DNA from: Naegleria gruberi
Taxonomy: Eukaryota
Strand: one strand, 5' to 3'
DNA length: 64,000 nt
Assembly: GCA_000004985.1 (NCBI GenBank)
Contig: GG738876.1
The position numbers and the translations under genes were made by a program. The notes beneath the pieces are model-generated. The model searched no databases and was not told where the DNA came from. It saw only the letters and a program-made list of their open reading frames with translations. Positions 18,820 to 64,000 of the stretch are shown one piece after another (positions within the stretch are counted from its first letter, which is position 1; each line of letters starts with the position of its first letter).

Positions 18820-20439
18820 ATGTCCTCATCAATTGCCCTGAATAATTCTAATACCTCTACCACTACTACTACCAATCCTCCTTTTGATATTTCCAAGCTT
18901 GTTACTCAAGCAGTTTTGTTACCTTCCTCCTCATCGTCATCCTTCCATAACAACCTCCCTAAATCATCATCATCATCCCCCTGTGCATTGGATAATAATA
19001 CCAATGAACAACAACAACAACAACCATTGAGTGATGATTCGATCATTCTCGAAGAAACAACCACCACCGACGTTGATAATACAGTAATTGCCACCATAAC
19101 GACAAAAGCTGCTCTAGGCAGTGGTGCTTTGATGGTTGAAGGAGTTGCCCTTGTCGACGATGAAGATGACGAAGAATCAACACCTGCCACACCAGAAGCT
19201 AATGGAGAATCCCAGCAAGAATCTTCTCAACAAGAACACCAAGAATCTGGCCTTTTAAAAGCCAAGAAGAAGAAGAATTCATTGACTAATAGTGCAGCAG
19301 CTCTTGAAGATTTGGAAACTATTTCAACCATGACAACTGTCAAGACTACAAGTACAACAAAGAAGGTTGTCAAGAGACATTCATCGCTCTCTGCTCAAAC
19401 TATGAACCAAGCAATGGATCAATCAATGAATCAATCAGCTCAACAAGAAGAACAATACACCACTCTTAAATCATCCACTCCAACAAAGAAGCAGAACAAG
19501 GAAAAGAAAGCAAGTCCTATCAATAATCTCTTCAAATCCATCAAGGGTGTCATTAAATCTTTAAAGAAGAATAAGAATAACAAGAGCACTTCTAGCTCAA
19601 CGACTTCACATAATAATAGCAAGCAAGATGGTGATTTAATCCATCAATTCTGTANNNNNNNNNNNNNNNNNNNNNNNNNNNNNNNNNNNNNNNNNNNNNN
19701 NNNNAACAAGGTGAAGCACTCACTGGTTTCTCAACAAGACGAAGAAGTCAAGACAAATAAGAAGAGAGCTCACAAGCAAGCTCCACAAACTGCTCTTCTC
19801 CCACCTCAACGACCACACGTTCAAGGCAAGAAGACTCTTGTACTTGACCTTGATGAAACATTGGTTCACTCTGTCTTTGTACATACTGACCAAGCTGACT
19901 TTGTGATTCCAATTGAAATGGATGGTAGAACATACTCTTGTTATGTTCTCAAGAGACCTGGAGTTGACGAATACTTGAGAGAACTCGGTCAATACTATGA
20001 AATTATCATCTTTACTGCTTCTCTCTCCCTGTATGCCAACCCACTTCTTGACATTCTTGATAAGCATGGTGTCATTGAAGGTAGATTATTCCGTGAACAT
20101 TGTACAAAGGTTGGTGATACTTACATTAAGGATCTCTCAAGATTGGGTCGTGATTTAGATCAAACCATTATTGTAGATAATTCTCCAAGTTGCTATGCAA
20201 TGCAACCACAAAATGCTTTGGCTTGTACCACATGGTACGATGATCCAAACGATAGAGAGCTGGGTCTTCTTGCTGATTGTCTCAAACGACTTGAAAGAGA
20301 AAAGGCTGTCTATGATGGTCTCAAGTCATGGAAGGAATTAATTTCATCAGGTGTTAATGTTACCTCATGGAATGGCGGATCAGCAATGACAGTATCCTCG
20401 ACGTCTCACCATCATCAAGTAATAAAGAAAAGAATGTAA
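18820..20439 (+). CDS. CTD small phosphatase-like protein (FCP1-homology/NIF domain), interrupted by N-gap 19656-19704
   Basis: C-terminal catalytic domain KKTLVLDLDETLVHS (DxDxT motif) ... IIIFTASLSLYANPLLDILD ... IIVDNSP. Long Ser/Thr/Gln-rich N-terminal region. The gap sits in the low-complexity linker. Confidence 0.8.
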   Translation: MSSSIALNNSNTSTTTTTNPPFDISKLVTQAVLLPSSSSSSFHNNLPKSSSSSPCALDNNTNEQQQQQPLSDDSIILEETTTTDVDNTVIATITTKAALGSGALMVEGVALVDDEDDEESTPATPEANGESQQESSQQEHQESGLLKAKKKKNSLTNSAAALEDLETISTMTTVKTTSTTKKVVKRHSSLSAQTMNQAMDQSMNQSAQQEEQYTTLKSSTPTKKQNKEKKASPINNLFKSIKGVIKSLKKNKNNKSTSSSTTSHNNSKQDGDLIHQFCXXXXXXXXXXXXXXXXXNKVKHSLVSQQDEEVKTNKKRAHKQAPQTALLPPQRPHVQGKKTLVLDLDETLVHSVFVHTDQADFVIPIEMDGRTYSCYVLKRPGVDEYLRELGQYYEIIIFTASLSLYANPLLDILDKHGVIEGRLFREHCTKVGDTYIKDLSRLGRDLDQTIIVDNSPSCYAMQPQNALACTTWYDDPNDRELGLLADCLKRLEREKAVYDGLKSWKELISSGVNVTSWNGGSAMTVSSTSHHHQVIKKRM

Positions 20440-23902: not shown

Positions 23903-24024
23903 NNNNNNNNNNNNNNNNNNNNNNNNNNNNNNNNNNNNNNNNNNNNNNNNNNCTGAAATTTTATTAATTTTATCTTTTTTTGCTTAATCATCATCATCCT
24001 AGGATGAAAATGCATAATTTATTA

Positions 24025-26345: not shown

Positions 26346-28774
26346 ATGAAAAGAGAAACTTTTAAGGTTCATGCAATACAACAAGGAAGAAGGAATAATG
26401 ATTCAACTCCTTCTTCTTCCTACTCGGAAGGATTTTTAAAGATGAAGAAGAATGTAAATAATAGCTTGATGATGCTGGTTGCATTAATATCAATCATGCT
26501 GCTGTTGGGTTTCTCTCAATATGTTGAAGCATTGAATGGTGAGGGAGTTGATGTATCCAAGTGCACTTATCAGAGTTCTGTCTCATTGGGCTCTACCATG
26601 ACTTTAAAGTGGAATGTTTTGAAGAATCCTAGTGATGCCTCCAATTATATTCTCGAATTTGGTTTAATTTGCACAAAGGCAGGTTATTGTTCCATTGGAT
26701 TTGATCATCCGTATGGGCAGGGCATGCAAAGTATTGATACCTTGTTTGCTTTTGTGAGTTCTGGAGTTGCCAATGTTCAGGATTGTTACTGCACCAATAA
26801 GCATTCAATTCCAACCATCGATTCGAACAATGGAGGTTCTAATGACTTTTTGGAAACTAATGGTGGAGTTGTGAATGGACAGTATCATTATAGATGGAGT
26901 AGAAAGATGAGTACTGGAGATTCACAGGATGCAACCTTTAAGAATTCAAATGTTTATGTGAGTTGGGCCTATCATTCATCCTCTACCTCAATTTCTTCAA
27001 CTCACACCGACTATGGAAGAAATATTGCAGTTAATTTCCTTTCCAATACACCAACTGAAACCTATGTGAAAGGAATGATTAATAATGGAGCTAGTAGTTC
27101 ATCCTCTTCTTCCTCAAATTCAACAAGTACTAGTAGCTCCACTTACACACAAGTTCCATCTCTATGCCCTTGCCATTGGTATTGCTTCACTAATCATGGC
27201 TGGATTAATTGTGACTTATTTGCCAACTGCTTTCAAATCCAACATTATTACTCACTTTTTATTTTATAGAAAGATTTCCAAGGTTATTCCATATGATTTT
27301 CCATTAGTTTCTTATGTGAATCAATTCCTTGATTTGACAATTGGTGAAGTATTGGTGATTATTGTCTATTTGGCTATGAAGGTTGTTTGGTTTGTTTATG
27401 GATTTCTTACTCAAACTGATGATTCTACAGCAAAGAAGGTAGCCTCTGGATTTACTCAATTAATTGTGTTTAACTATATTTTCCTGTTCATTCCAGTGAC
27501 AAGATATTCAGTTTTACAAGCATTATTTGGAATTTCATTCGAAAGATCAATCAAATTCCATAAATGGATTGGTGTCATGGTTTTCCTCTCTGCAACTGCT
27601 CATGGTATAGTGGAATTTATTGCGTACAGGGACAATATTCCATATATATTCTCGGTTGGTGATGGTTTTCCATTACTGGGAATTATTGCTTGGTTGACTC
27701 TTGGATTGCTTCTTTTATTCTCACTTGAGCCAATCAGAAGAAAATTATATGAATTGTTTTTGGTATTCCACATTCCATTGACCTTTATCACAGTCACATT
27801 CTCAATTATTCATGGTGAAGGTTGGATTAATTTACTTCCATATATGGCATTCTCACTCTTTTTAATGGTAGTGGATTTTCTTTTGAGAGCAATAATTGGA
27901 TTTGGCGTTCCAACCAAGTTGGTTCAGATTTCATATGATGAAGATGCTGAGGTTACAACTTGTGTATTCGAAAAGAGATTCTTGACCCTGTTCCACAATC
28001 CAAATCATGCTCACTTTGTCTTTGTTTACATTCCACAAGTTTCCATTTATCAACTCCATCCAATGACAATTAGTTCATGTGTTAAGTTGCATGATGGTAG
28101 TCATCAATTTACATGCCACATCAAACGAATGGAAGGAGGTTCTTGGTTAACCAAATTGGCCAACCTAGCCAAGTCAAAGAATGATTGATGAATATTTTGG
28201 CGTTAGAGTTGAAGGAGCATATGGAAATCTTTCCATTCCATTCTTCAATTCAGGACTATTCTCAAAAATAGAAGATCCAAAGCGTACCATTGTCTTTATC
28301 GTTGCTGGAATTGGAGCCACTCCTGCCAATGCTATCCTTACAGCTCTGGAAGATCCAAAATATAATGAACCAACTCCTTACAAGGTCTTTGTTAACTTTA
28401 CAATGAGAAATGAAGCTCTCCTTCCTCACTTGACCAAAATTATTCAACAAAAACCCAATGTTGAAAGTTCCTTCTATATTACTGGTTCCAAATCAAAATC
28501 TCACAATGCCAATCAGATTGAAATGCTAGAGAAGGGAAGAAGTACTGGAATAGATCATAGTAATGATAGAAGATTTATCAAGGGATCAAGACCAGTCTAT
28601 GAAGAGTATCTTCATAAGGTGAAACAATATGTTGCCCAATCTAAATCAAAGCCATACGTTTCAGTGTTTGCCTGTGGTCCAGCAGCCATGATGAATGCAG
28701 TTCATAATGCTGTAATTTCAGCTAGTGATATGGATTGTCGATTTGAACTTCATAAGGAAGAATTTGAATTTTAA
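26346..28774 (+). CDS. DOMON domain fused to a ferric-reductase/NADPH-oxidase-type flavocytochrome (paralog A); coding spread over 3 frames by two apparent +1 frameshifts near 27100-27170 and 28160-28185
   Basis: Signal peptide, then Cys-containing DOMON-like domain (CTYQSSVSLGSTMTLKWNV...GYCSIGFDHPYGQGMQS...DCYCTN). TM ferric-reductase domain with His ligands (HKWIGVMVFLSATAHGIVEF, FHIPLTFITVTFSIIHGEG). FAD motif HPMTISS. NAD(P)H motifs IVFIVAGIGATP and VFACGPAAMMNAV. The frameshift positions were inferred by comparison with in-frame paralog B. Confidence 0.65.
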
Positions 28775-29065
28775 TTTATAAACTATTTTGTTTTAAGGTA
28801 ATAAAAGCATCTTGGAATTCCAAGAGGAAGTTTTTTCCTCTGTTGTTGAAAAATATGGACTTTTTTGGAACTTTTACGACAAGAATATGTTGTTAAGGAT
28901 GCATCCTTCCCTTTTAATCTTCTTATTTTCCATTATTCCACATGAATCATTGTAAATTGCGCTGGTGTTTTTAAAAATTGGCGTTTTGCATGGCCTCCTC
29001 TCCTCAAAACCAAGAAGACAACTGGAAAAAATCTTTAACACAACCATTGAATAGGATTTTCACAC

Positions 29066-31497
29066 ATGTGGATATTAAGGCAGCAGCAGAATCATCCAAT
29101 AAAACATTTAGAGAGTGTTAACTACTCTCTTTCATCAAATAGAACACAAAAATGTTCGGAAAGAGGATTATTAAAATTAACTGTCATGTGTTTGATAATA
29201 TTCATGATAAATATCACTCATATACAACATGTTGAGGCATTGAACAGTGCAGGAAATGATGTGTCCAAATGTACCTATCAAAAATCAGTAAAACTTGGCT
29301 CTACCATGACTCTCTACTGGAATGTTTTGAAAAATCCCAATGATGCCTCCAATCCCATTCTTGAATTTGGTTTAATTTGCACAAAAGCAGGTTACTGTTC
29401 CATTGGATTTGACCATCCATTTGGAAAAGGTATGCAAAGTATTGATACCTTGTTTGCTTATACTTCCAATGGAGCTGCATATGTTCAGGATTGTTATTGC
29501 ACCAATAAGAAATCCATTCCAACCATCGACTCGAACAATGGAGGTTCTAATGACTTTTGGAAACTAATGGTGGAGTTGTGAATGGACAGTATCATTATAG
29601 GTGGAGTAGAAAGATGAGCACTGGAGATTCACAGGATGCAACCTTTAAGAATTCAAATGTTTATGTGAGTTGGGCCTATCATTCATCCTCGACTTCAATT
29701 AGGTCAACTCACACGGCCTATGATAGAAATATTGCCATCAACTTTCTTTCTGTCTCGCCAACTGAAACCTACTCAACTGGTATGATTAATTCTGGAACTA
29801 GTAACAATAATAATGGAGGTGGTAATAATAATGGTGGCAATGATGACAATGAAGGAGACAATGATGATGACCATGACAGTGGAGATTCAAAGAAGCACTT
29901 GTATCATTTGTATGCTTTGGGAATTGCTGTATTTTCCTTAATGGTATTAGGAATTATTACCACTATCTTACCAGCTTCTGTCAAATCTAATATCTTTACT
30001 CACTTTTTGCTGTACAGAAAGGTTTCGAAAGTTATTCCATATGATTTTCCATTAGTTTCCTATGTGAATCAATTCCTTGATCTGACTCTTGGTGAGTTGG
30101 TTATCATTTTAGTATATGCTGGATTGAATGTTATTTGGTTTGTTTATGGATATTTGGAAAGTCAAAAGGTTTCGTCTGCATTTGCAAAGGTGATTGTATT
30201 TAACTATATTTTCCTGTTCATTCCAGTGACAAGATATTCAGTTTTACAAGCATTATTTGGAATTTCATTCGAAAGATCAATCAAATTCCATAAATGGATT
30301 GGTGTCATGGTTTTCCTCTCTGCAACTGCTCATGGTATAGTGGAATTCATCGAATTTAAAGATAACATTCCATTCATGTTTTCAGTGGAGGATGGATATC
30401 CATTGTTGGGAATTATTGCATGGCTAGCTCTTGGATTATTATTGCTATTTTCAATGGAGCCAATCAGAAGAAAATTATATGAATTGTTTTTGGTTTTCCA
30501 TATTCCATTGACATTTATCACAGTCACATTCTCAATTATTCATGGTGAAGGTTGGATTAATTTACTTCCATACATGGCATTCTCTATTATTTTAATGGTA
30601 ATTGACTGGACTTTAAGAGCAATTATTGGATTTGGTCTTCATACACAACTAGTCCATATATCCTATGATGAAGAGTCTGAAGTGACCACTTGTGTATTCG
30701 AAAAGAGATTCTTGACCCTGTTCCACAATCCAAATCATGCTCATTTTGTTTTTGTTTACATTCCACAAGTTTCCATTTATCAACTCCATCCAATGACAAT
30801 TAGCTCATGTGAAAAACTTGCAGATAGTAACCATTACCGATTCACATGCCACATCAAAAGAATGGAAGGAGGTTCTTGGTCAACCAAATTGGCCAATCTT
30901 GCAAAATCCAACAAACCAATCGATTCATATCATGGTGTTAGAGTTGAAGGAGCTTACGGAAATCTTTCCATTCCATTCTTCAATGACAGTCTCCTCTCCA
31001 GAAGTGAAGATAAAAAGAGAACCATTGTCTTTATCGTTGCTGGAATTGGAGCCACTCCTGCCAATGCTATCCTTACAGCTCTGGAAGATCCAAAATATAA
31101 TGAACCAACTCCTTACAAAGTCTATGTGAATTTAACTTCAAGAAATGAAGCAATTCTCAAGCACTTTAGAATACTGGTCCAACACAAACCAAATGTAGAT
31201 TGCACATTCTACATAACAGGAACTAAACCATCCAAATCTATAGAAATGTTAGAAAAAGGGCAAAGTACTGGAATTGACCATAGTACAGATAGAAGGTTTA
31301 TCAGAGGATCAAGACCAAATTATGTTGATTACTTGAATGGTGTGAAAGCACAAGTCAATCAATCAAAATCGCTCCCTTACGTTTCAGTGTTTGCCTGTGG
31401 TCCTTCTTCAATGATGAATTCTGTTCATAATGCTGTGTGGTCATGTAGTGATATGGATTGTCGTTTCGAATTACATAAAGAAGAATTTGAATTTTAA
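29066..31497 (+). CDS. DOMON-ferric reductase/NOX-type flavocytochrome (paralog B); one apparent -1 frameshift at a T-homopolymer near 29553-29560
   Basis: Same architecture and long 100% identical stretches with paralog A (e.g. 27461-27600 = 30211-30350). The homopolymer is T4 here versus T5 in paralog A at GACTTTT(T)GGAAACTAATGG. It has a poly-N/G/D acidic linker instead of paralog A's poly-S linker. Confidence 0.65.
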
Positions 31498-31827: not shown

Positions 31828-33860
31828 ATGGGAAATGGAAAATCAAAGGAAGGAGGAAAAGGTGGTTTGTTAGCCGTGTCGAGAAATTCCCTCGATGAAG
31901 GTCCTCCTGCAAAATCCTCTTCCAGTGTAAAACCAAATCAAAGAGTTAATATCTATGTTGATGAAACGTCGGTTAAGAATAATAATAATACTACTACTAC
32001 ATCTAATATGAATAATAATAATAATAACAATACTAATAATAATAATAGCCTTCATCAGAGTCAACTTTCCAATGATTCATCATCAACTAATAATAATACA
32101 ACAACAACAACAGCAACTCCACCCTCCAATAATCAAAATCCAAACACAGCAACAGGAACAACAATTTCCAATACCAATACAGATAGTACCACATCATCAT
32201 CACCCAACGCGTCGACTAACAATTCTGTTCTCACTCCTTCGAATCAGCAACAACAACATCATGTAACTTTTGGCGCCAATACTGGTTCTTCTTCGTCTAT
32301 TGTTTTTGGTGTTGATGTGAGTGTGGCGGTTCAGAGAAGCTGTAAATTAATTCTCAAAATGTTACTCCAGAAAAAACAACAAGAATCAGGCGCTGCTGCT
32401 GCTGATAGTTCTCCTCCTCCTCCTCAGGAAAGTATTTCGGAAGAAAAAGTATGTTAATTTAATTATTATTTCAAGTGTTCTAATAGAATTTTATTATTTT
32501 GATATTATTGTTATTGTTATCGTAATTGATTACGATGATGATGATTTTAATTATTATGAATGATGATTTTAATAGAAGAATGAATATAAACATCCATTGG
32601 CAAGTGATGAAGAAATAGAAGCCATAGAGAAAGTATGTGCCAATCTAGAAACTTTATTCATTCCGGAAGTATTACGTCAATGTCTTAGATTTTTAAATTA
32701 CTATTCATCTCTTCTTGAACAAGGTGTCTATCGTATACCTGGAGATACACAGAAAATGAAAGAATATAGAGAAGTATTTGATAAAGGTCAGTCCATTGAC
32801 TTTTTGGCAGAGAATCGAGAAATTGATAGAAAGAGAAAGGAAGCACAAGAAAATGGAGTTACTGTTGATATAGTGCATCACGGAGTAAGTATTTATTCGA
32901 AAGTATAATATTCTCATTATCATCATTATAATCACAATGAACATCATCACAACAATAGATTAAACATGATGCTCATGATGTGGCTGGTCTCATTAAATTG
33001 TTCTTGAGAGAGCTTCCTGGAGATTATCATTTATTTACATCACAAACAGCTCCTGAATTTTCCATTTCACATTTGAAGAATTTTGCAACAGAGGAAGAAA
33101 AAGTTGAATCAGTGAGGACAAGTTTACTTCGAGTACCAAGAGCTAATAGAGATACTTTGAAAGCTCTGTGTGAACACTTTAGACTGATAATCAAATACGA
33201 GAAATCTAACAAGATGACAACTGACAATTTACTCAAATGGTATGTTTTAATTTTTCACATAATTTTTCAATAACATTTGATCCTATTCAAATGAAATTAT
33301 CGCAACAATCTTCTTTCATCATCTGGAACAATAACAGTATATGTGGAACATCACCTTATGTATTGGCTTTCTATTTTATGGTTCAATTCTATGATATAGT
33401 TTTCAGAGAGGAGGAAAAGAAAGAACCATCTAAACCATTAACAGAAGAGGAAATGAACTCGACCAAGAATATTGAATGGTTGCTAAGAGCTCAAAATGAT
33501 AACAAAAATGTACTCAGTCTGGGTAATCTTTCACACCTCACTGGAGGAAATAACAATTTATCAAATGAAGCACTTGCAGGTAAAGCCATGAGTGCTAGGG
33601 AAAGTAGAAGAAAGTCGTACTATCAAAGACAGCAAAGAAATGACAGCACAGCATCTGAAGATACACCAACTACTGCCACTGACCAATCTGATTTTGCCTC
33701 CCCAGCAACAAATGATAATTCCAATTCTGATTTAGATCCAATAACTTTAGCACTATTGAAAATGAAAAAGGACAAGGATACACAAAACGAAAACACAATT
33801 GCCACAGACAATGTAGACTCACAAGAACAAAATGATTCTTCGATTACAGTTGAGATGTAA
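31828..33860 (+). CDS. N-myristoylated RhoGAP-domain protein, join(31828..32448,32576..32884,32959..33239,33338..33860)
   Basis: MGNGKSK N-terminus (myristoylation consensus). Poly-N/T/Q/S tracts. The RhoGAP domain is spread over exons 2-4: GVYRIPGDTQKMKEYREVFDKG...DIVHHG|IKHDAHDVAGLIKLFLRELP...NKMTTDNLLK. Introns start GTATGT, GTAAGT, GTATGT and phases are consistent. The last acceptor (AACAG|T) is the least certain. Confidence 0.65.
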
Positions 33861-58753: not shown

Positions 58754-61700
58754 NNNNNNNNNNNNNNNNNNNNNNNNNNNNNNNNNNNNNNNNNNNNNNN
58801 NNNNNNNNNNNNNNNNNNNNNNNNNNNNNNNNNNNNNNNNNNNNNNNNNNNNNNNNNNNNNNNNNNNNNNNNNNNNNNNNNNNNNNNNNNNNNNNNNNNN
58901 NNNNNNNNNNNNNNNNNNNNNNNNNNNNNNNNNNNNNNNNNNNNNNNNNNNNNNNNNNNNNNNNNNNNNNNNNNNNNNNNNNNNNNNNNNNNNNNNNNNN
59001 NNNNNNNNNNNNNNNNNNNNNNNNNNNNNNNNNNNNNNNNNNNNNNNNNNNNNNNNNNNNNNNNNNNNNNNNNNNNNNNNNNNNNNNNNNNNNNNNNNNN
59101 NNNNNNNNNNNNNNNNNNNNNNNNNNNNNNNNNNNNNNNNNNNNNNNNNNNNNNNNNNNNNNNNNNNNNNNNNNNNNNNNNNNNNNNNNNNNNNNNNNNN
59201 NNNNNNNNNNNNNNNNNNNNNNNNNNNNNNNNNNNNNNNNNNNNNNNNNNNNNNNNNNNNNNNNNNNNNNNNNNNNNNNNNNNNNNNNNNNNNNNNNNNN
59301 NNNNNNNNNNNNNNNNNNNNNNNNNNNNNNNNNNNNNNNNNNNNNNNNNNNNNNNNNNNNNNNNNNNNNNNNNNNNNNNNNNNNNNNNNNNNNNNNNNNN
59401 NNNNNNNNNNNNNNNNNNNNNNNNNNNNNNNNNNNNNNNNNNNNNNNNNNNNNNNNNNNNNNNNNNNNNNNNNNNNNNNNNNNNNNNNNNNNNNNNNNNN
59501 NNNNNNNNNNNNNNNNNNNNNNNNNNNNNNNNNNNNNNNNNNNNNNNNNNNNNNNNNNNNNNNNNNNNNNNNNNNNNNNNNNNNNNNNNNNNNNNNNNNN
59601 NNNNNNNNNNNNNNNNNNNNNNNNNNNNNNNNNNNNNNNNNNNNNNNNNNNNNNNNNNNNNNNNNNNNNNNNNNNNNNNNNNNNNNNNNNNNNNNNNNNN
59701 NNNNNNNNNNNNNNNNNNNNNNNNNNNNNNNNNNNNNNNNNNNNNNNNNNNNNNNNNNNNNNNNNNNNNNNNNNNNNNNNNNNNNNNNNNNNNNNNNNNN
59801 NNNNNNNNNNNNNNNNNNNNNNNNNNNNNNNNNNNNNNNNNNNNNNNNNNNNNNNNNNNNNNNNNNNNNNNNNNNNNNNNNNNNNNNNNNNNNNNNNNNN
59901 NNNNNNNNNNNNNNNNNNNNNNNNNNNNNNNNNNNNNNNNNNNNNNNNNNNNNNNNNNNNNNNNNNNNNNNNNNNNNNNNNNNNNNNNNNNNNNNNNNNN
60001 NNNNNNNNNNNNNNNNNNNNNNNNNNNNNNNNNNNNNNNNNNNNNNNNNNNNNNNNNNNNNNNNNNNNNNNNNNNNNNNNNNNNNNNNNNNNNNNNNNNN
60101 NNNNNNNNNNNNNNNNNNNNNNNNNNNNNNNNNNNNNNNNNNNNNNNNNNNNNNNNNNNNNNNNNNNNNNNNNNNNNNNNNNNNNNNNNNNNNNNNNNNN
60201 NNNNNNNNNNNNNNNNNNNNNNNNNNNNNNNNNNNNNNNNNNNNNNNNNNNNNNNNNNNNNNNNNNNNNNNNNNNNNNNNNNNNNNNNNNNNNNNNNNNN
60301 NNNNNNNNNNNNNNNNNNNNNNNNNNNNNNNNNNNNNNNNNNNNNNNNNNNNNNNNNNNNNNNNNNNNNNNNNNNNNNNNNNNNNNNNNNNNNNNNNNNN
60401 NNNNNNNNNNNNNNNNNNNNNNNNNNNNNNNNNNNNNNNNNNNNNNNNNNNNNNNNNNNNNNNNNNNNNNNNNNNNNNNNNNNNNNNNNNNNNNNNNNNN
60501 NNNNNNNNNNNNNNNNNNNNNNNNNNNNNNNNNNNNNNNNNNNNNNNNNNNNNNNNNNNNNNNNNNNNNNNNNNNNNNNNNNNNNNNNNNNNNNNNNNNN
60601 NNNNNNNNNNNNNNNNNNNNNNNNNNNNNNNNNNNNNNNNNNNNNNNNNNNNNNNNNNNNNNNNNNNNNNNNNNNNNNNNNNNNNNNNNNNNNNNNNNNN
60701 NNNNNNNNNNNNNNNNNNNNNNNNNNNNNNNNNNNNNNNNNNNNNNNNNNNNNNNNNNNNNNNNNNNNNNNNNNNNNNNNNNNNNNNNNNNNNNNNNNNN
60801 NNNNNNNNNNNNNNNNNNNNNNNNNNNNNNNNNNNNNNNNNNNNNNNNNNNNNNNNNNNNNNNNNNNNNNNNNNNNNNNNNNNNNNNNNNNNNNNNNNNN
60901 NNNNNNNNNNNNNNNNNNNNNNNNNNNNNNNNNNNNNNNNNNNNNNNNNNNNNNNNNNNNNNNNNNNNNNNNNNNNNNNNNNNNNNNNNNNNNNNNNNNN
61001 NNNNNNNNNNNNNNNNNNNNNNNNNNNNNNNNNNNNNNNNNNNNNNNNNNNNNNNNNNNNNNNNNNNNNNNNNNNNNNNNNNNNNNNNNNNNNNNNNNNN
61101 NNNNNNNNNNNNNNNNNNNNNNNNNNNNNNNNNNNNNNNNNNNNNNNNNNNNNNNNNNNNNNNNNNNNNNNNNNNNNNNNNNNNNNNNNNNNNNNNNNNN
61201 NNNNNNNNNNNNNNNNNNNNNNNNNNNNNNNNNNNNNNNNNNNNNNNNNNNNNNNNNNNNNNNNNNNNNNNNNNNNNNNNNNNNNNNNNNNNNNNNNNNN
61301 NNNNNNNNNNNNNNNNNNNNNNNNNNNNNNNNNNNNNNNNNNNNNNNNNNNNNNNNNNNNNNNNNNNNNNNNNNNNNNNNNNNNNNNNNNNNNNNNNNNN
61401 NNNNNNNNNNNNNNNNNNNNNNNNNNNNNNNNNNNNNNNNNNNNNNNNNNNNNNNNNNNNNNNNNNNNNNNNNNNNNNNNNNNNNNNNNNNNNNNNNNNN
61501 NNNNNNNNNNNNNNNNNNNNNNNNNNNNNNNNNNNNNNNNNNNNNNNNNNNNNNNNNNNNNNNNNNNNNNNNNNNNNNNNNNNNNNNNNNNNNNNNNNNN
61601 NNNNNNNNNNNNNNNNNNNNNNNNNNNNNNNNNNNNNNNNNNNNNNNNNNNNNNNNNNNNNNNNNNNNNNNNNNNNNNNNNNNNNNNNNNNNNNNNNNNN

Positions 61701-62899
61701 NNNNNNNNNNNNNNNNNNNNNNNNNNNNNNNNNNNNNNNNNNNNNNNNNNNNNNNNNNNNNNNNNNNNNNNNNNNNNNNNNNNNNNNNNNNNNNNNNNNN
61801 NNNNNNNNNNNNNNNNNNNNNNNNNNNNNNNNNNNNNNNNNNNNNNNNNNNNNNNNNNNNNNNNNNNNNNNNNNNNNNNNNNNNNNNNNNNNNNNNNNNN
61901 NNNNNNNNNNNNNNNNNNNNNNNNNNNNNNNNNNNNNNNNNNNNNNNNNNNNNNNNNNNNNNNNNNNNNNNNNNNNNNNNNNNNNNNNNNNNNNNNNNNN
62001 NNNNNNNNNNNNNNNNNNNNNNNNNNNNNNNNNNNNNNNNNNNNNNNNNNNNNNNNNNNNNNNNNNNNNNNNNNNNNNNNNNNNNNNNNNNNNNNNNNNN
62101 NNNNNNNNNNNNNNNNNNNNNNNNNNNNNNNNNNNNNNNNNNNNNNNNNNNNNNNNNNNNNNNNNNNNNNNNNNNNNNNNNNNNNNNNNNNNNNNNNNNN
62201 NNNNNNNNNNNNNNNNNNNNNNNNNNNNNNNNNNNNNNNNNNNNNNNNNNNNNNNNNNNNNNNNNNNNNNNNNNNNNNNNNNNNNNNNNNNNNNNNNNNN
62301 NNNNNNNNNNNNNNNNNNNNNNNNNNNNNNNNNNNNNNNNNNNNNNNNNNNNNNNNNNNNNNNNNNNNNNNNNNNNNNNNNNNNNNNNNNNNNNNNNNNN
62401 NNNNNNNNNNNNNNNNNNNNNNNNNNNNNNNNNNNNNNNNNNNNNNNNNNNNNNNNNNNNNNNNNNNNNNNNNNNNNNNNNNNNNNNNNNNNNNNNNNNN
62501 NNNNNNNNNNNNNNNNNNNNNNNNNNNNNNNNNNNNNNNNNNNNNNNNNNNNNNNNNNNNNNNNNNNNNNNNNNNNNNNNNNNNNNNNNNNNNNNNNNNN
62601 NNNNNNNNNNNNNNNNNNNNNNNNNNNNNNNNNNNNNNNNNNNNNNNNNNNNNNNNNNNNNNNNNNNNNNNNNNNNNNNNNNNNNNNNNNNNNNNNNNNN
62701 NNNNNNNNNNNNNNNNNNNNNNNNNNNNNNNNNNNNNNNNNNNNNNNNNNNNNNNNNNNNNNNNNNNNNNNNNNNNNNNNNNNNNNNNNNNNNNNNNNNN
62801 NNNNNNNNNNNNNNNNNNNNNNNNNNNNNNNNNNNNNNNNNNNNNNNNNNNNNNNNNNNNNNNNNNNNNNNNNNNNNNNNNNNNNNNNNNNNNNNNNNN
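58754..62899. other. Scaffold gap (4146 N) between subtelomere and terminal telomere-associated sequence
   Basis: Uninterrupted run of N. The giant six-frame ORFs spanning it are artefacts. Confidence 0.99.
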
Positions 62900-63600: not shown

Positions 63601-64000
63601 TTGGGTTTGGGTTTGGGGTTGGGTTTGGGTTTGGGTTTGGGTTTGGGTTTGGGTTTGGGTTTGGGTTTGGGTTTGGGTTTGGGTTTGGGTTTGGGTTTGG
63701 GTTTGGGTTTGGGTTTGGGTTTGGGTTTGGGTTTGGGTTTGGGTTTGGGTTTGGGTTTGGGTTTGGGTTTGGGTTTGGGTTTGGGTTTGGGTTTGGGTTT
63801 GGGTTTGGGTTTGGGTTTGGGTTTGGGTTTGGGTTTGGGTTTGGGTTTGGGTTTGGGTTTGGGTTTGGGTTTGGGTTTGGGTTTGGGTTTGGGTTTGGGT
63901 TTGGGTTTGGGTTTGGGTTTGGGTTGGGTTTGGGTTTGGGTTTGGGTTTGGGTTTGGGTTTGGGTTTGGGTTTGGGTTTGGGTTTGGGTTTGGGTTTGGC
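63601..64000 (+). repeat. Telomere repeat array (TTTGGG)n with occasional TTGGG/TTTGGGG variants, about 65 units, G-rich strand 5'->3' toward the window end (right chromosome terminus)
   Basis: Direct reading. The array begins after the unique junction ...GAGATAATCAATTAAGATGACTAAAAATCAAAATG and runs to the last base of the window. Confidence 0.9.

What the first reader, a model, noticed from the sequence alone, without database searches (positions are those of the whole stretch)
26346..31497. Tandem pair of DOMON-ferric reductase/NOX genes with long 100%-identical blocks and different frameshifts in each copy
Two head-to-tail paralogs (about 2.4 kb each, about 300 bp apart) encode signal peptide + DOMON-like domain + 6-TM bis-heme ferric-reductase domain + FAD (HPMTISS) + NAD(P)H (GIGATP, CGP) modules. 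They share perfectly identical stretches over 140 bp (27461-27600 = 30211-30350), which suggests recent duplication or ongoing gene conversion. Copy A needs two +1 shifts, one in a poly-Ser linker around 27100-27170 and one at 28160-28185. Copy B needs one -1 shift at a T4-vs-T5 homopolymer (29553-29560). Each shift lies where the other copy is intact. All shifts are in homopolymer or low-complexity DNA, so homopolymer basecalling error in a draft assembly is the most economical explanation; independent pseudogenisation of both copies is the alternative. Their linkers have diverged completely (poly-S in copy A versus poly-N/G/D in copy B), unlike the identical catalytic core.
Basis: partly seen in the sequence, partly recalled or inferred. 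Interest (0 to 1): 0.6.

Follow-up and report, generated by a model that had tools for sequence, protein, structure and literature searches.

The report
Frameshifted tandem ferric reductase genes, Naegleria
Two neighbouring copies of an already described amoeba (Naegleria gruberi) membrane ferric-reductase gene are kept partly identical by gene conversion and carry three one-base reading-frame breaks whose cause (very young mutations or draft-sequence errors) cannot be settled here, so the finding is ordinary apart from showing that the public protein models are wrong.

Summary
The window is Naegleria gruberi NEG-M, near a telomere-like scaffold end. Copy A (26346-28774) and copy B (29066-31497) are head-to-tail paralogues encoding signal peptide, DOMON, one extra TM helix, a 6-TM bis-heme ferric-reductase domain, and FAD and NAD(P)H domains.

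Copy A changes frame twice: at 27090-27145 and at about 28176-28182. Copy B changes frame once, at T4 29555-29558, where A has T5. These breaks are not introns. Homology runs straight through each one, and the Willaertia magna orthologue is a single uninterrupted ORF.

Synonymous divergence is mosaic (dS 0.04-0.18 in blocks, above 1 elsewhere; run test P about 2e-4). This supports gene conversion.

The proteins are FRE-type, not NOX-type. Zhang et al. 2013 already list both genes (D2VJS7, D2VJS8) in the DOMON-bearing eFRE clade 2, using models distorted by these breaks.

Overall dN/dS is 0.26 and 98 of 101 family-invariant residues are kept, so any inactivation is very recent. I could not decide between young, possibly heterozygous, lesions (about 0.5) and consensus errors (about 0.4). 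Interest is low.

The parts
26346..28774 (+). Copy A (JGI model D2VJS7 / XP_002675746 = P0002). DOMON-ferric reductase gene read in three frames. The likely true start is the ATG at 26442 (MKKNVNNSLMMLVALISIMLLLGFSQYVEA, a signal peptide).
26592..26975 (+). Copy A DOMON domain (residues 83-210).
   Evidence: Pfam PF03351, E 9e-18. The predicted fold matches heme-b cytochrome/DOMON domains 6JT6, 1D7C, 4QI3 and 4ZEL. Met and two His are invariant in the family.
27090..27145 (+). Copy A frame break 1 (frame 0 to 1), inside the Ser-rich linker. It cannot be placed more precisely.
   Evidence: GMINNGA is read in frame 0 up to 27089. THKFHLYAL, the start of the extra TM helix, is read in frame 1 from 27145. 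The JGI model bridges the break with a 31-nt 'intron' (27097-27127, GTTCAT...ACAAG) that is unlike the real 55-75-nt GTA(A/T) introns of the window.
27463..27798 (+). Copy A ferric-reductase transmembrane core. Heme histidine codons lie at 27559-61, 27601-03, 27769-71 and 27811-13.
   Evidence: Pfam PF01794, E 2e-20. H-x13-H occurs twice.
28176..28182 (+). Copy A frame break 2 (frame 1 to 2), in AAAGAATGATT, inside the FAD-binding domain.
   Evidence: LAKSK is read in frame 1 and MIDEYFGVRVEGAYG in frame 2. Both align to B, P0003 and Willaertia with no residues missing. The JGI model instead splices out about 200 nt that encode invariant residues.
28286..28714 (+). Copy A NAD(P)H-binding domain (GIGATP at 28307-28324, CGP at 28673-28681).
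   Evidence: Pfam PF08030, E 1e-9; motifs.
29066..31497 (+). Copy B (JGI model D2VJS8 / XP_002675747 = P0001, which starts at an internal Met after the break and so lacks DOMON).
29555..29558 (+). Copy B frame break (frame 2 to 1): TTTT where copy A has TTTTT (26847-26851). It lies inside the DOMON domain and inside a near-identical tract.
   Evidence: SNDF is read in frame 2 and LETNGGVVNGQYHY in frame 1.
27469..27617 (+). Longest exact A=B block (149 bp), equal to 30199-30347. A gene-conversion tract over TM2-TM3 of the ferric-reductase domain.
   Evidence: In Willaertia, 14 of the 33 identical residues here use another codon.
28286..28383 (+). Second exact block (98 bp), equal to 31021-31118. 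A conversion tract over the NAD(P)H-binding motif.
26823..26983 (+). Near-identical tract in DOMON, equal to B 29531-29690. It carries 2 synonymous differences plus the T5/T4 indel.

Best explanation
The locus is a tandem pair of paralogues from the known DOMON-bearing ferric-reductase family (eFRE clade 2) of Naegleria gruberi. It lies about 32 kb from a telomere-like array.

Each repaired gene encodes a signal peptide, an extracellular heme-type DOMON domain, a low-complexity linker, one extra TM helix, a six-helix bis-heme ferric-reductase domain, and cytosolic FAD and NAD(P)H domains. The inferred mechanism passes electrons from cytosolic NAD(P)H to FAD, then to the inner heme, the outer heme and the DOMON heme, and finally to an extracellular acceptor such as Fe(III).

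The duplication is old: dS is about 1 or more outside the blocks. Short gene-conversion tracts of about 50-160 bp have since re-homogenised parts of the coding core. Both copies were under purifying selection until very recently.

The three frame breaks are plain one-base length changes in short runs or low-complexity DNA. They are not introns, recoding sites or gene fissions. My slight preference is that they are genuine, very young loss-of-function alleles, possibly heterozygous, in a redundant subtelomeric gene pair. They would be younger than the last conversion events. I cannot exclude consensus errors.
For: Organism, genes and domains:
- The domain architecture comes, and the DOMON fold.

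Not introns:
- Homology is continuous through all three breaks.
- The Willaertia orthologue is one 731-codon ORF.
- Real introns in the window look different.

Conversion:
- dS is mosaic.
- The run test gives P about 2e-4.
- There is a 149-bp exact block with no deep codon conservation.

Past selection:
- dN/dS is 0.26.
- Each copy keeps 98 of 101 columns that are invariant in seven other family members, as good as the intact controls.
- Lineage-specific replacements are similar in the two copies, 37 and 32.

For genuine lesions:
- All three breaks fall in the 4.9-kb pair, while about 28.7 kb of other ORFs of 300 aa or more in the window are unbroken. If three events were placed uniformly, the chance is about (4.86/33.5)^3 = 0.003.
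- Copy A has two breaks.
- The pair sits near a telomere-like array and belongs to a multi-copy family of seven DOMON-bearing paralogues. Null alleles are commonly tolerated in such a setting (established knowledge).
- The assembly is Sanger shotgun (my own knowledge), so no homopolymer-specific error mode is expected.
Against: - No independent reads or assemblies of this locus could be reached, so the breaks rest on one draft consensus.
- The scaffold has gaps nearby: 50 N at 23903-23952 and 19655-19704, and 4146 N at 58754-62899.
- Three one-base edits restore full-length ORFs with no stop codon and every catalytic motif intact. This is what consensus errors would look like.
- Two hits in A and one in B with no other visible damage require the lesions to be very young. 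I infer an age of roughly 0.006 substitutions per site or less. That is a narrow time window.
- The count of unbroken neighbours is biased, because broken genes elsewhere would show up as shorter ORFs.
Confidence: 0.5

Rival explanations
1. All three frame breaks are errors of the draft consensus: base-calling or assembly errors in low-coverage stretches, or a chimeric consensus across heterozygous length variants in the low-complexity linker. Both genes are intact and functional in the organism.
For: - Minimal one-base repairs give complete 808- and 810-aa proteins that align end to end with homologues.
- There are no stop codons, all motifs are kept, dN/dS is 0.26, and 98 of 101 invariant residues are kept.
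- The breaks lie in short runs or low-complexity DNA.
- Assembly gaps lie within 2.4 kb of copy A and elsewhere in the window.
- The strain is reported as heterozygous (PMC9928731).
Against: - Three indel errors in 4.9 kb against none seen in about 28.7 kb of neighbouring long ORFs needs a local low-quality patch spanning both genes.
- Sanger chemistry (my own knowledge of the project) has no systematic T4/T5 problem.
- The evolutionary tests cannot tell errors from very young lesions.
Confidence: 0.4
2. The breaks are biological features of expression: short spliceosomal introns (as the public models assume for copy A), programmed ribosomal frameshifting, or fission of copy A into three separately translated ORFs.
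For: - The JGI model P0002 bridges both A breaks with GT-AG 'introns'.
- ORF2 and ORF3 of copy A each begin with an ATG close to a junction.
- The A break 2 region contains GAT TGA T, an in-frame stop that could in principle host a +1 shift.
Against: - Coding homology continues on both sides of every break with no residues missing.
- The 200-nt 'intron' would remove residues that are invariant in nine family members.
- The 31-nt 'intron' is half the size of real introns here and lacks their GTA(A/T) start.
- The Willaertia orthologue is uninterrupted.
- The ATG at 28181 is an ancestral internal Met, also present in P0003.
- The break positions differ between A and B, so no conserved recoding signal exists.
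- Break 2 cuts inside the FAD-binding barrel rather than between domains.
Confidence: 0.03
3. Both copies are old, decaying pseudogenes, and the identical blocks reflect recent duplication rather than conversion.
For: There are frame disruptions in both copies. B has one non-conservative change at an otherwise invariant Pro.
Against: - dN/dS is 0.26, and nonsynonymous changes are almost absent in the low-dS windows (3 against 10 synonymous).
- There are no stop codons, and invariant residues are kept as well as in intact controls.
- dS is about 1 or more across much of the genes. The 5' ends, linkers and flanks are unalignable, next to blocks with dS of 0.05 or less. A single recent duplication would not produce this pattern.
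Confidence: 0.04

Closest known systems
DOMON-containing eukaryotic ferric reductases, eFRE 'clade 2' / model M10 of Zhang et al. 2013 (PMC3591440): seven N. gruberi paralogues plus Albugo F0X089 and Phytophthora D0MUZ3
   Same: The architecture is the same: DOMON, one extra TM helix, the ferric-reductase domain, FAD and NAD(P)H domains. Copies A and B are themselves in that data set as D2VJS7 and D2VJS8.
   Different: Nothing differs in kind. The published entries used the frameshift-distorted models. D2VJS8 is listed as '1 TM ?' with no DOMON. D2VJS7 lacks about 66 residues of the FAD domain and most of the linker.
Yeast FRE / plant FRO ferric-chelate reductases
   Same: They share the six-TM bis-heme domain with H-x13-H in TM3 and TM5, the HPxT FAD motif and the GxGxTP NAD(P)H motif.
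   Different: FRE and FRO have no N-terminal extracellular DOMON domain and no extra TM helix. Enzymatic activity of the Naegleria proteins is untested.
NADPH oxidases (NOX1-5, DUOX, RBOH)
   Same: The superfamily and the dehydrogenase module are the same. The closest solved chain by sequence is the csNOX5 dehydrogenase domain 5O0X/8CAK (E 2e-6).
   Different: The NOX signature His-119 is Glu here. The TM5 histidines are 14 apart rather than 13. There are no EF-hands. Zhang et al. place the separate true Naegleria NOX genes (D2VM77, D2VLT6) elsewhere in their classification.
Plant CYBDOM / AIR12 and animal FRRS1 (SDR2) proteins (DOMON plus cytochrome b561)
   Same: An extracellular heme-type DOMON is coupled to a transmembrane di-heme electron carrier that reduces apoplastic or extracellular Fe(III) (abstracts of PMC10784552 and PMC10784544).
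   Different: The membrane module is cytochrome b561, fed by ascorbate. Here it is a ferric-reductase domain fed by its own NAD(P)H/FAD domain. The resemblance is an analogy of wiring, not family membership.
Cytochrome domain of cellobiose dehydrogenase / pyranose dehydrogenase
   Same: These are the best structural matches of the predicted DOMON domain (6JT6, 1D7C, 4QI3; Foldseek E 3e-5 to 2e-4, TM 0.47-0.56). A Met and a His about 93 residues apart are invariant, as for the Met/His heme ligands of CDH (CDH ligation from my own knowledge).
   Different: They are fungal secreted flavocytochromes with 13-16% identity. Heme binding by the Naegleria domain is inferred, not shown.

Membership tests
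DOMON-bearing eFRE clade 2 (Zhang et al. 2013) | Ferric-reductase transmembrane domain with four heme-ligating histidines in TM3 and TM5 | tested here: met
   PF01794 E 2e-20 (A) and 5e-22 (B). H405/H419 and H475/H489 in A, H409/H423 and H479/H493 in B. These are invariant in 9 family members.
DOMON-bearing eFRE clade 2 (Zhang et al. 2013) | C-terminal FAD- and NAD(P)H-binding dehydrogenase module | tested here: met
   PF08030 in both copies. PF08022 in B only, at 21.3 bits, just under the 22-bit cut-off. HPMT, GIGATP and CGP motifs are present. Matches the csNOX5 dehydrogenase domain.
DOMON-bearing eFRE clade 2 (Zhang et al. 2013) | N-terminal extracellular DOMON domain followed by one additional TM helix | tested here: met
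   PF03351 E 9e-18 (A) and 3e-19 (B). Hydropathy shows a signal peptide, an extra TM at A 272-290 / B 284-302, and six further helices. In B this holds only after repair of the frame break.
DOMON-bearing eFRE clade 2 (Zhang et al. 2013) | Listed as a member in the defining study | tested here: met
   D2VJS7 and D2VJS8 occur in the supplementary tables, and D2VJS8 is labelled 'clade2'. Accessions were mapped.
DOMON-bearing eFRE clade 2 (Zhang et al. 2013) | Ferric (metal) reductase activity | not testable with these tools
   No biochemical data exist for any Naegleria member. Only whole-cell ferric reductase activity in N. fowleri is reported (PMC7326272).
NADPH oxidase (NOX) group | His-119 (NOX2 numbering), four residues after the second TM3 heme histidine | tested here: not met
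   The sequence after the second histidine is G-I-V-E in both copies. Criterion from PMC3591440.
NADPH oxidase (NOX) group | TM5 heme histidines 13 residues apart (NOX2 His-209 / His-222) | tested here: not met
   Here they are 14 apart (475/489 in A, 479/493 in B). NOX2 positions from PMC3591440.
NADPH oxidase (NOX) group | Thr-178-Gly-179 dipeptide in TM4 | tested here: inconclusive
   TM4 reads PLLGIIAWL, i.e. Leu-Gly with no Thr-Gly. I did not align it to NOX2 residue by residue.
Heme-b binding (cytochrome-type) DOMON | DOMON beta-sandwich fold with conserved Met and His axial-ligand candidates | tested here: met
   Model pLDDT 74. Top PDB matches are cytochrome domains 6JT6, 1D7C and 4QI3 and the DBH DOMON 4ZEL. 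Met68, His122 and His161 are invariant. Actual heme binding is not testable.
Pseudogene (non-processed) | Reading-frame disruption in the genomic sequence | tested here: met
   Two breaks in A and one in B. This holds in the deposited consensus only.
Pseudogene (non-processed) | Relaxed constraint: dN/dS near 1, loss of invariant residues, additional stop codons | tested here: not met
   dN/dS 0.26. 98 of 101 invariant columns kept. No stop codons after repair. These tests have little power against lesions younger than about 1% divergence (inference).
Pseudogene (non-processed) | Lesions confirmed in independent reads, and no intact transcript | not testable with these tools
   No second N. 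gruberi copy of the locus is retrievable.
Spliceosomal intron at the break sites | GT...AG segment of normal size whose removal joins the homologous coding sequence | tested here: not met
   Homology is continuous across the breaks. The orthologue is intronless. Introns in the window are 55-75 nt and start GTA(A/T).
Interlocus gene conversion between tandem paralogues | Mosaic of near-zero and saturated synonymous divergence that protein constraint does not explain | tested here: met
   dS is 0.04-0.18 in blocks against 0.5 to above 1 elsewhere. Run-length permutation at synonymous-capable codons gives P 2e-4. The Willaertia orthologue shows free synonymous change in the same block.

The most novel reading that the evidence does not exclude
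The reciprocal pattern, in which each break lies where the other copy is intact, inside or beside conversion tracts and in a subtelomeric setting, could reflect a switchable system. Surface ferric-reductase copies would be turned off by slippage in short runs and restored by gene conversion from the neighbouring copy. That would be a eukaryotic analogue of bacterial contingency loci.
Probability: 0.03. Interest if true: 0.6.

Novelty: already known. Interest (0 to 1): 0.18.

Why it matters
The practical value is for annotation. The public proteins XP_002675746 (D2VJS7) and XP_002675747 (D2VJS8) are artefactual: one has invented introns, one has lost DOMON, and one has lost part of the FAD domain. 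These distorted models have already entered a published family classification, where one is listed as '1 TM ?'. The repaired 808- and 810-aa sequences show both loci encode, or very recently encoded, the full DOMON-FRE architecture.

Biologically, the pair is a clear small example of patchy interlocus gene conversion in a subtelomeric gene family of a heterolobosean. If the lesions are real, it also shows very recent loss of redundant ferric reductases in the laboratory strain NEG-M. None of this changes what is known about the family.

Tried and rejected
1. Introns were rejected. Homology is continuous across the breaks, the orthologue is intronless, and real introns in the window look different.

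2. Programmed frameshifting and gene fission were rejected. The break sites are not conserved between the copies. The first A break is not at a stop codon. The junction ATG is an ancestral internal Met. Break 2 lies inside a domain.

3. I looked for independent sequence of the locus and found none.
- Exact look-ups of P0001, P0002, P0003, two copy A ORFs and both flanking ORFs found nothing on record.
- Two protein searches returned only the JGI models for N. gruberi copies A and B, each in a cluster of size 1.

4. The DNA of the third close paralogue (D2W2K5, on another scaffold) could not be obtained. A three-way codon analysis or GENECONV run was therefore not possible. A protein-level three-way comparison showed A and B are mostly sisters, with similar numbers of private changes (37 and 32).

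5. I considered using the defects of the D2W2K5 model (no N-terminus, no extra TM) as evidence of further lesions, then dropped the idea. JGI models in this family are also incomplete for ordinary reasons. For example, D2V2B1 misses its first exon, which contig L002 shows upstream of a real intron.

6. Pfam scans of other adjacent or overlapping ORF pairs in the window gave no evidence of further frameshifts, but the power of that check is low.

Full report
**What the window is.** A protein search with the repaired copy B returned two 'predicted protein [Naegleria gruberi]' entries on one 396,977-bp scaffold. P0001 is 100% identical over the part after the copy B break. P0002 is copy A. Their accessions are XP_002675747 / D2VJS8 and XP_002675746 / D2VJS7. 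The window is therefore the JGI draft of N. gruberi NEG-M. It has about 35% G+C, two 50-N gaps (19655-19704, 23903-23952) and one 4146-N gap (58754-62899). It ends in 66.7 copies of a TTTGGG-type repeat at 63601-63999. This looks like a telomere, so the gene pair lies about 32 kb from a chromosome end.

**Checking the observation.** Copies A (26346-28774) and B (29066-31497) lie head to tail on the + strand, 291 bp apart.
- Copy A is read in frame 0 up to the Ser-rich linker. It is in frame 1 from no later than 27145 (THKFHLYAL...) and in frame 2 from 28181 (MIDEYFGVRVEG...).
- Copy B shifts from frame 2 to frame 1 at TTTT 29555-29558, where A has TTTTT.
- Skipping one base at 27141 and one at 28180 in A, and re-using one T at 29557 in B, gives 808- and 810-aa proteins with no stop codon.
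- These proteins carry DOMON, Ferric_reduct, FAD_binding_8 (B only, just below cut-off) and NAD_binding_6.
27461-27600 and 30211-30350 are not identical as written. The longest exact block is 149 bp, 27469-27617 = 30199-30347, followed by blocks of 98, 71, 59, 56, 53 and 46 bp.

**The breaks are not introns or recoding sites.**
- The repaired proteins align without missing residues through all three junctions to the third close paralogue P0003, to Willaertia magna P0004 and to P0005.
- The Willaertia gene is a single uninterrupted 731-codon ORF (L001 8001-10196).
- Real introns in this window are 55-75 nt, AT-rich and begin GTA(A/T).
- The public copy A model bridges the first break with a 31-nt 'intron' (GTTCAT...ACAAG). 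It bridges the second with a roughly 200-nt 'intron' that deletes residues invariant in nine family members.
- The public copy B model simply starts at an internal Met after the break and so lacks DOMON.
- The ATG at 28181 is an ancestral internal Met, since P0003 has KSKKMV there. The second break also lies inside the FAD-binding barrel. Fission into separate ORFs is therefore not credible.

**What the genes encode.** Hydropathy shows a signal peptide, one extra TM helix after the linker, and six further helices. Both copies have H-x13-H in TM3 and TM5, plus HPMT, GIGATP and CGP.

A model of the copy A DOMON region (mean pLDDT 74) matches several solved domains. These are the heme-b cytochrome domains of pyranose dehydrogenase and cellobiose dehydrogenase, and the DOMON of dopamine beta-hydroxylase. 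A Met and two His are invariant across the family.

The inferred electron path is NAD(P)H, FAD, two membrane hemes, the DOMON heme, and then an extracellular acceptor. Only the domains and motifs are shown here. Cofactor binding and activity are inferred.

By the criteria of Zhang et al. 2013, the proteins are FRE-type and not NOX-type. The His-119 equivalent is Glu, and the TM5 histidines are 14 rather than 13 residues apart.

**Prior knowledge.** Zhang et al. [quoted passage not shown] Their supplementary tables contain D2VJS7, D2VJS8 and D2W2K5. D2VJS8 is annotated '1 TM ?', meaning no DOMON was seen, which follows directly from the frame break. Intact homologues exist in N. fowleri, N. lovaniensis and W. 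magna; some have two DOMON domains.

**Gene conversion.** Over 792 aligned codons, dS is 0.71, dN is 0.18 and dN/dS is 0.26.
- dS is strongly mosaic. It is 0.04-0.18 in windows at 26814-26993, 27463-27552, 27733-27822 and 28274-28363. It is 0.5 to saturated elsewhere.
- The 5' ends, linkers and flanks do not align at all.
- Among 564 codon pairs that encode the same degenerate amino acid, 25% differ. Yet there are runs of 47, 32 and 23 identical codons, with permutation P of 2e-4, 1.5e-4 and 3.5e-4.
- In the 149-bp block, the Willaertia orthologue uses a different codon at 14 of 33 identical residues. Synonymous sites there are therefore not intrinsically frozen.
- An old duplication with later short conversion tracts is the straightforward reading.

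**Are the genes decaying?**
- Each copy keeps 98 of the 101 alignment columns that are invariant in seven other family members. This is at least as good as intact control genes treated the same way.
- Private replacements are balanced, 37 in B and 32 in A.
- In the low-dS windows, which represent the most recent time slice, there are 10 synonymous and 3 nonsynonymous differences.
- Purifying selection therefore acted until very recently.
- By my own estimate (inference), three frameshifts in 4.9 kb at an indel-to-substitution ratio of about 0.1 correspond to only about 0.6% neutral divergence. These tests could not detect that.
- They exclude old pseudogenes. They do not separate very young lesions from sequencing errors.

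**Real lesions or errors?** No independent sequence of this locus was reachable.

For errors:
- The sequence is a draft consensus with gaps nearby.
- The breaks lie in short runs or low-complexity DNA.
- Minimal edits restore perfect ORFs.
- The strain is reported as heterozygous, so a chimeric consensus in the Ser-rich linker is conceivable.

For real lesions:
- From my own knowledge the assembly is roughly 8x Sanger shotgun, which has no homopolymer-specific error mode.
- About 28.7 kb of other ORFs of 300 aa or more in the same window are unbroken. The other overlapping-ORF candidates are explained by introns or antisense ORFs, or have no domain support. If three events were placed uniformly, the chance that all fall in this pair is about 0.003, although that count is biased.
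- Copy A has two hits.
- A redundant, subtelomeric, multi-copy family is where null alleles are usually tolerated.

I put genuine young lesions, possibly heterozygous, at about 0.5. Consensus errors are at about 0.4, and all other readings together are below 0.1.

**Verdict.** The domain reading and the gene-conversion idea are supported. 'NOX' should be dropped in favour of FRE. The preference for basecalling error is not well founded, but it is not refuted either. The family and these very genes are already in the literature, so the finding is of low general interest. Its practical value is that the public protein models of both genes are wrong and can be repaired. ENA run ERR1078381 holds reads from a near-identical Naegleria. 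Together with the original traces, it could settle the question.

Noticed in passing
window 63601-63999: A telomere-like array, with TRF unit TTGGGT (TTTGGG-type), 66.7 copies and 98% match. It runs to the end of the window with the G-rich strand pointing outward. The region studied is therefore subtelomeric, about 32 kb from the array.
   Followed up: partly
window 19655-19704, 23903-23952, 58754-62899: Three assembly gaps (50, 50 and 4146 N). The nearest is 2.4 kb upstream of copy A. This bears on local assembly quality.
   Followed up: partly
L002 1452-3680 (ENA ERZ929261, run ERR1078381, project PRJEB11402): A 'metagenome' contig encodes a DOMON-FRE protein (P0005) that is 620/622 identical to N. 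gruberi D2V2B1. An independent short-read data set of a near-NEG-M Naegleria therefore exists. The contig also shows a first exon (1452-1775: signal peptide plus the first half of DOMON) and a short intron that the JGI model D2V2B1 misses.
   Followed up: partly
P0003 (D2W2K5, N. gruberi scaffold of 174,974 bp; not in the window): The public model of the third close paralogue starts at the internal MTLYWNV. It also lacks the extra TM helix between the linker and the ferric-reductase domain. It is probably mis-modelled too. Its DNA could not be retrieved.
   Followed up: no
window 27084-27145 versus 29791-29895; L001 (Willaertia): Copy B's N/G/D-rich acidic linker resembles the Willaertia linker (…NPVDNGGSMDDDENG…). 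Copy A's is a shorter Ser-rich one. Copy A's linker therefore looks derived, and it is also where its first frame break sits.
   Followed up: no
P0006, P0007 (N. fowleri, N. lovaniensis): More distant family members are about 1006 aa long and carry two tandem DOMON domains before the ferric-reductase core.
   Followed up: no
window 31828-33860: The downstream neighbour appears to be a multi-exon RhoGAP-like gene by eye (YRIPGD, LFLRELP motifs). It has a long N/T/S/Q-rich low-complexity first exon and short GTA-type introns, for example near 32909-32958 and from 33240. Pfam gave no hit on the two pieces tested.
   Followed up: partly
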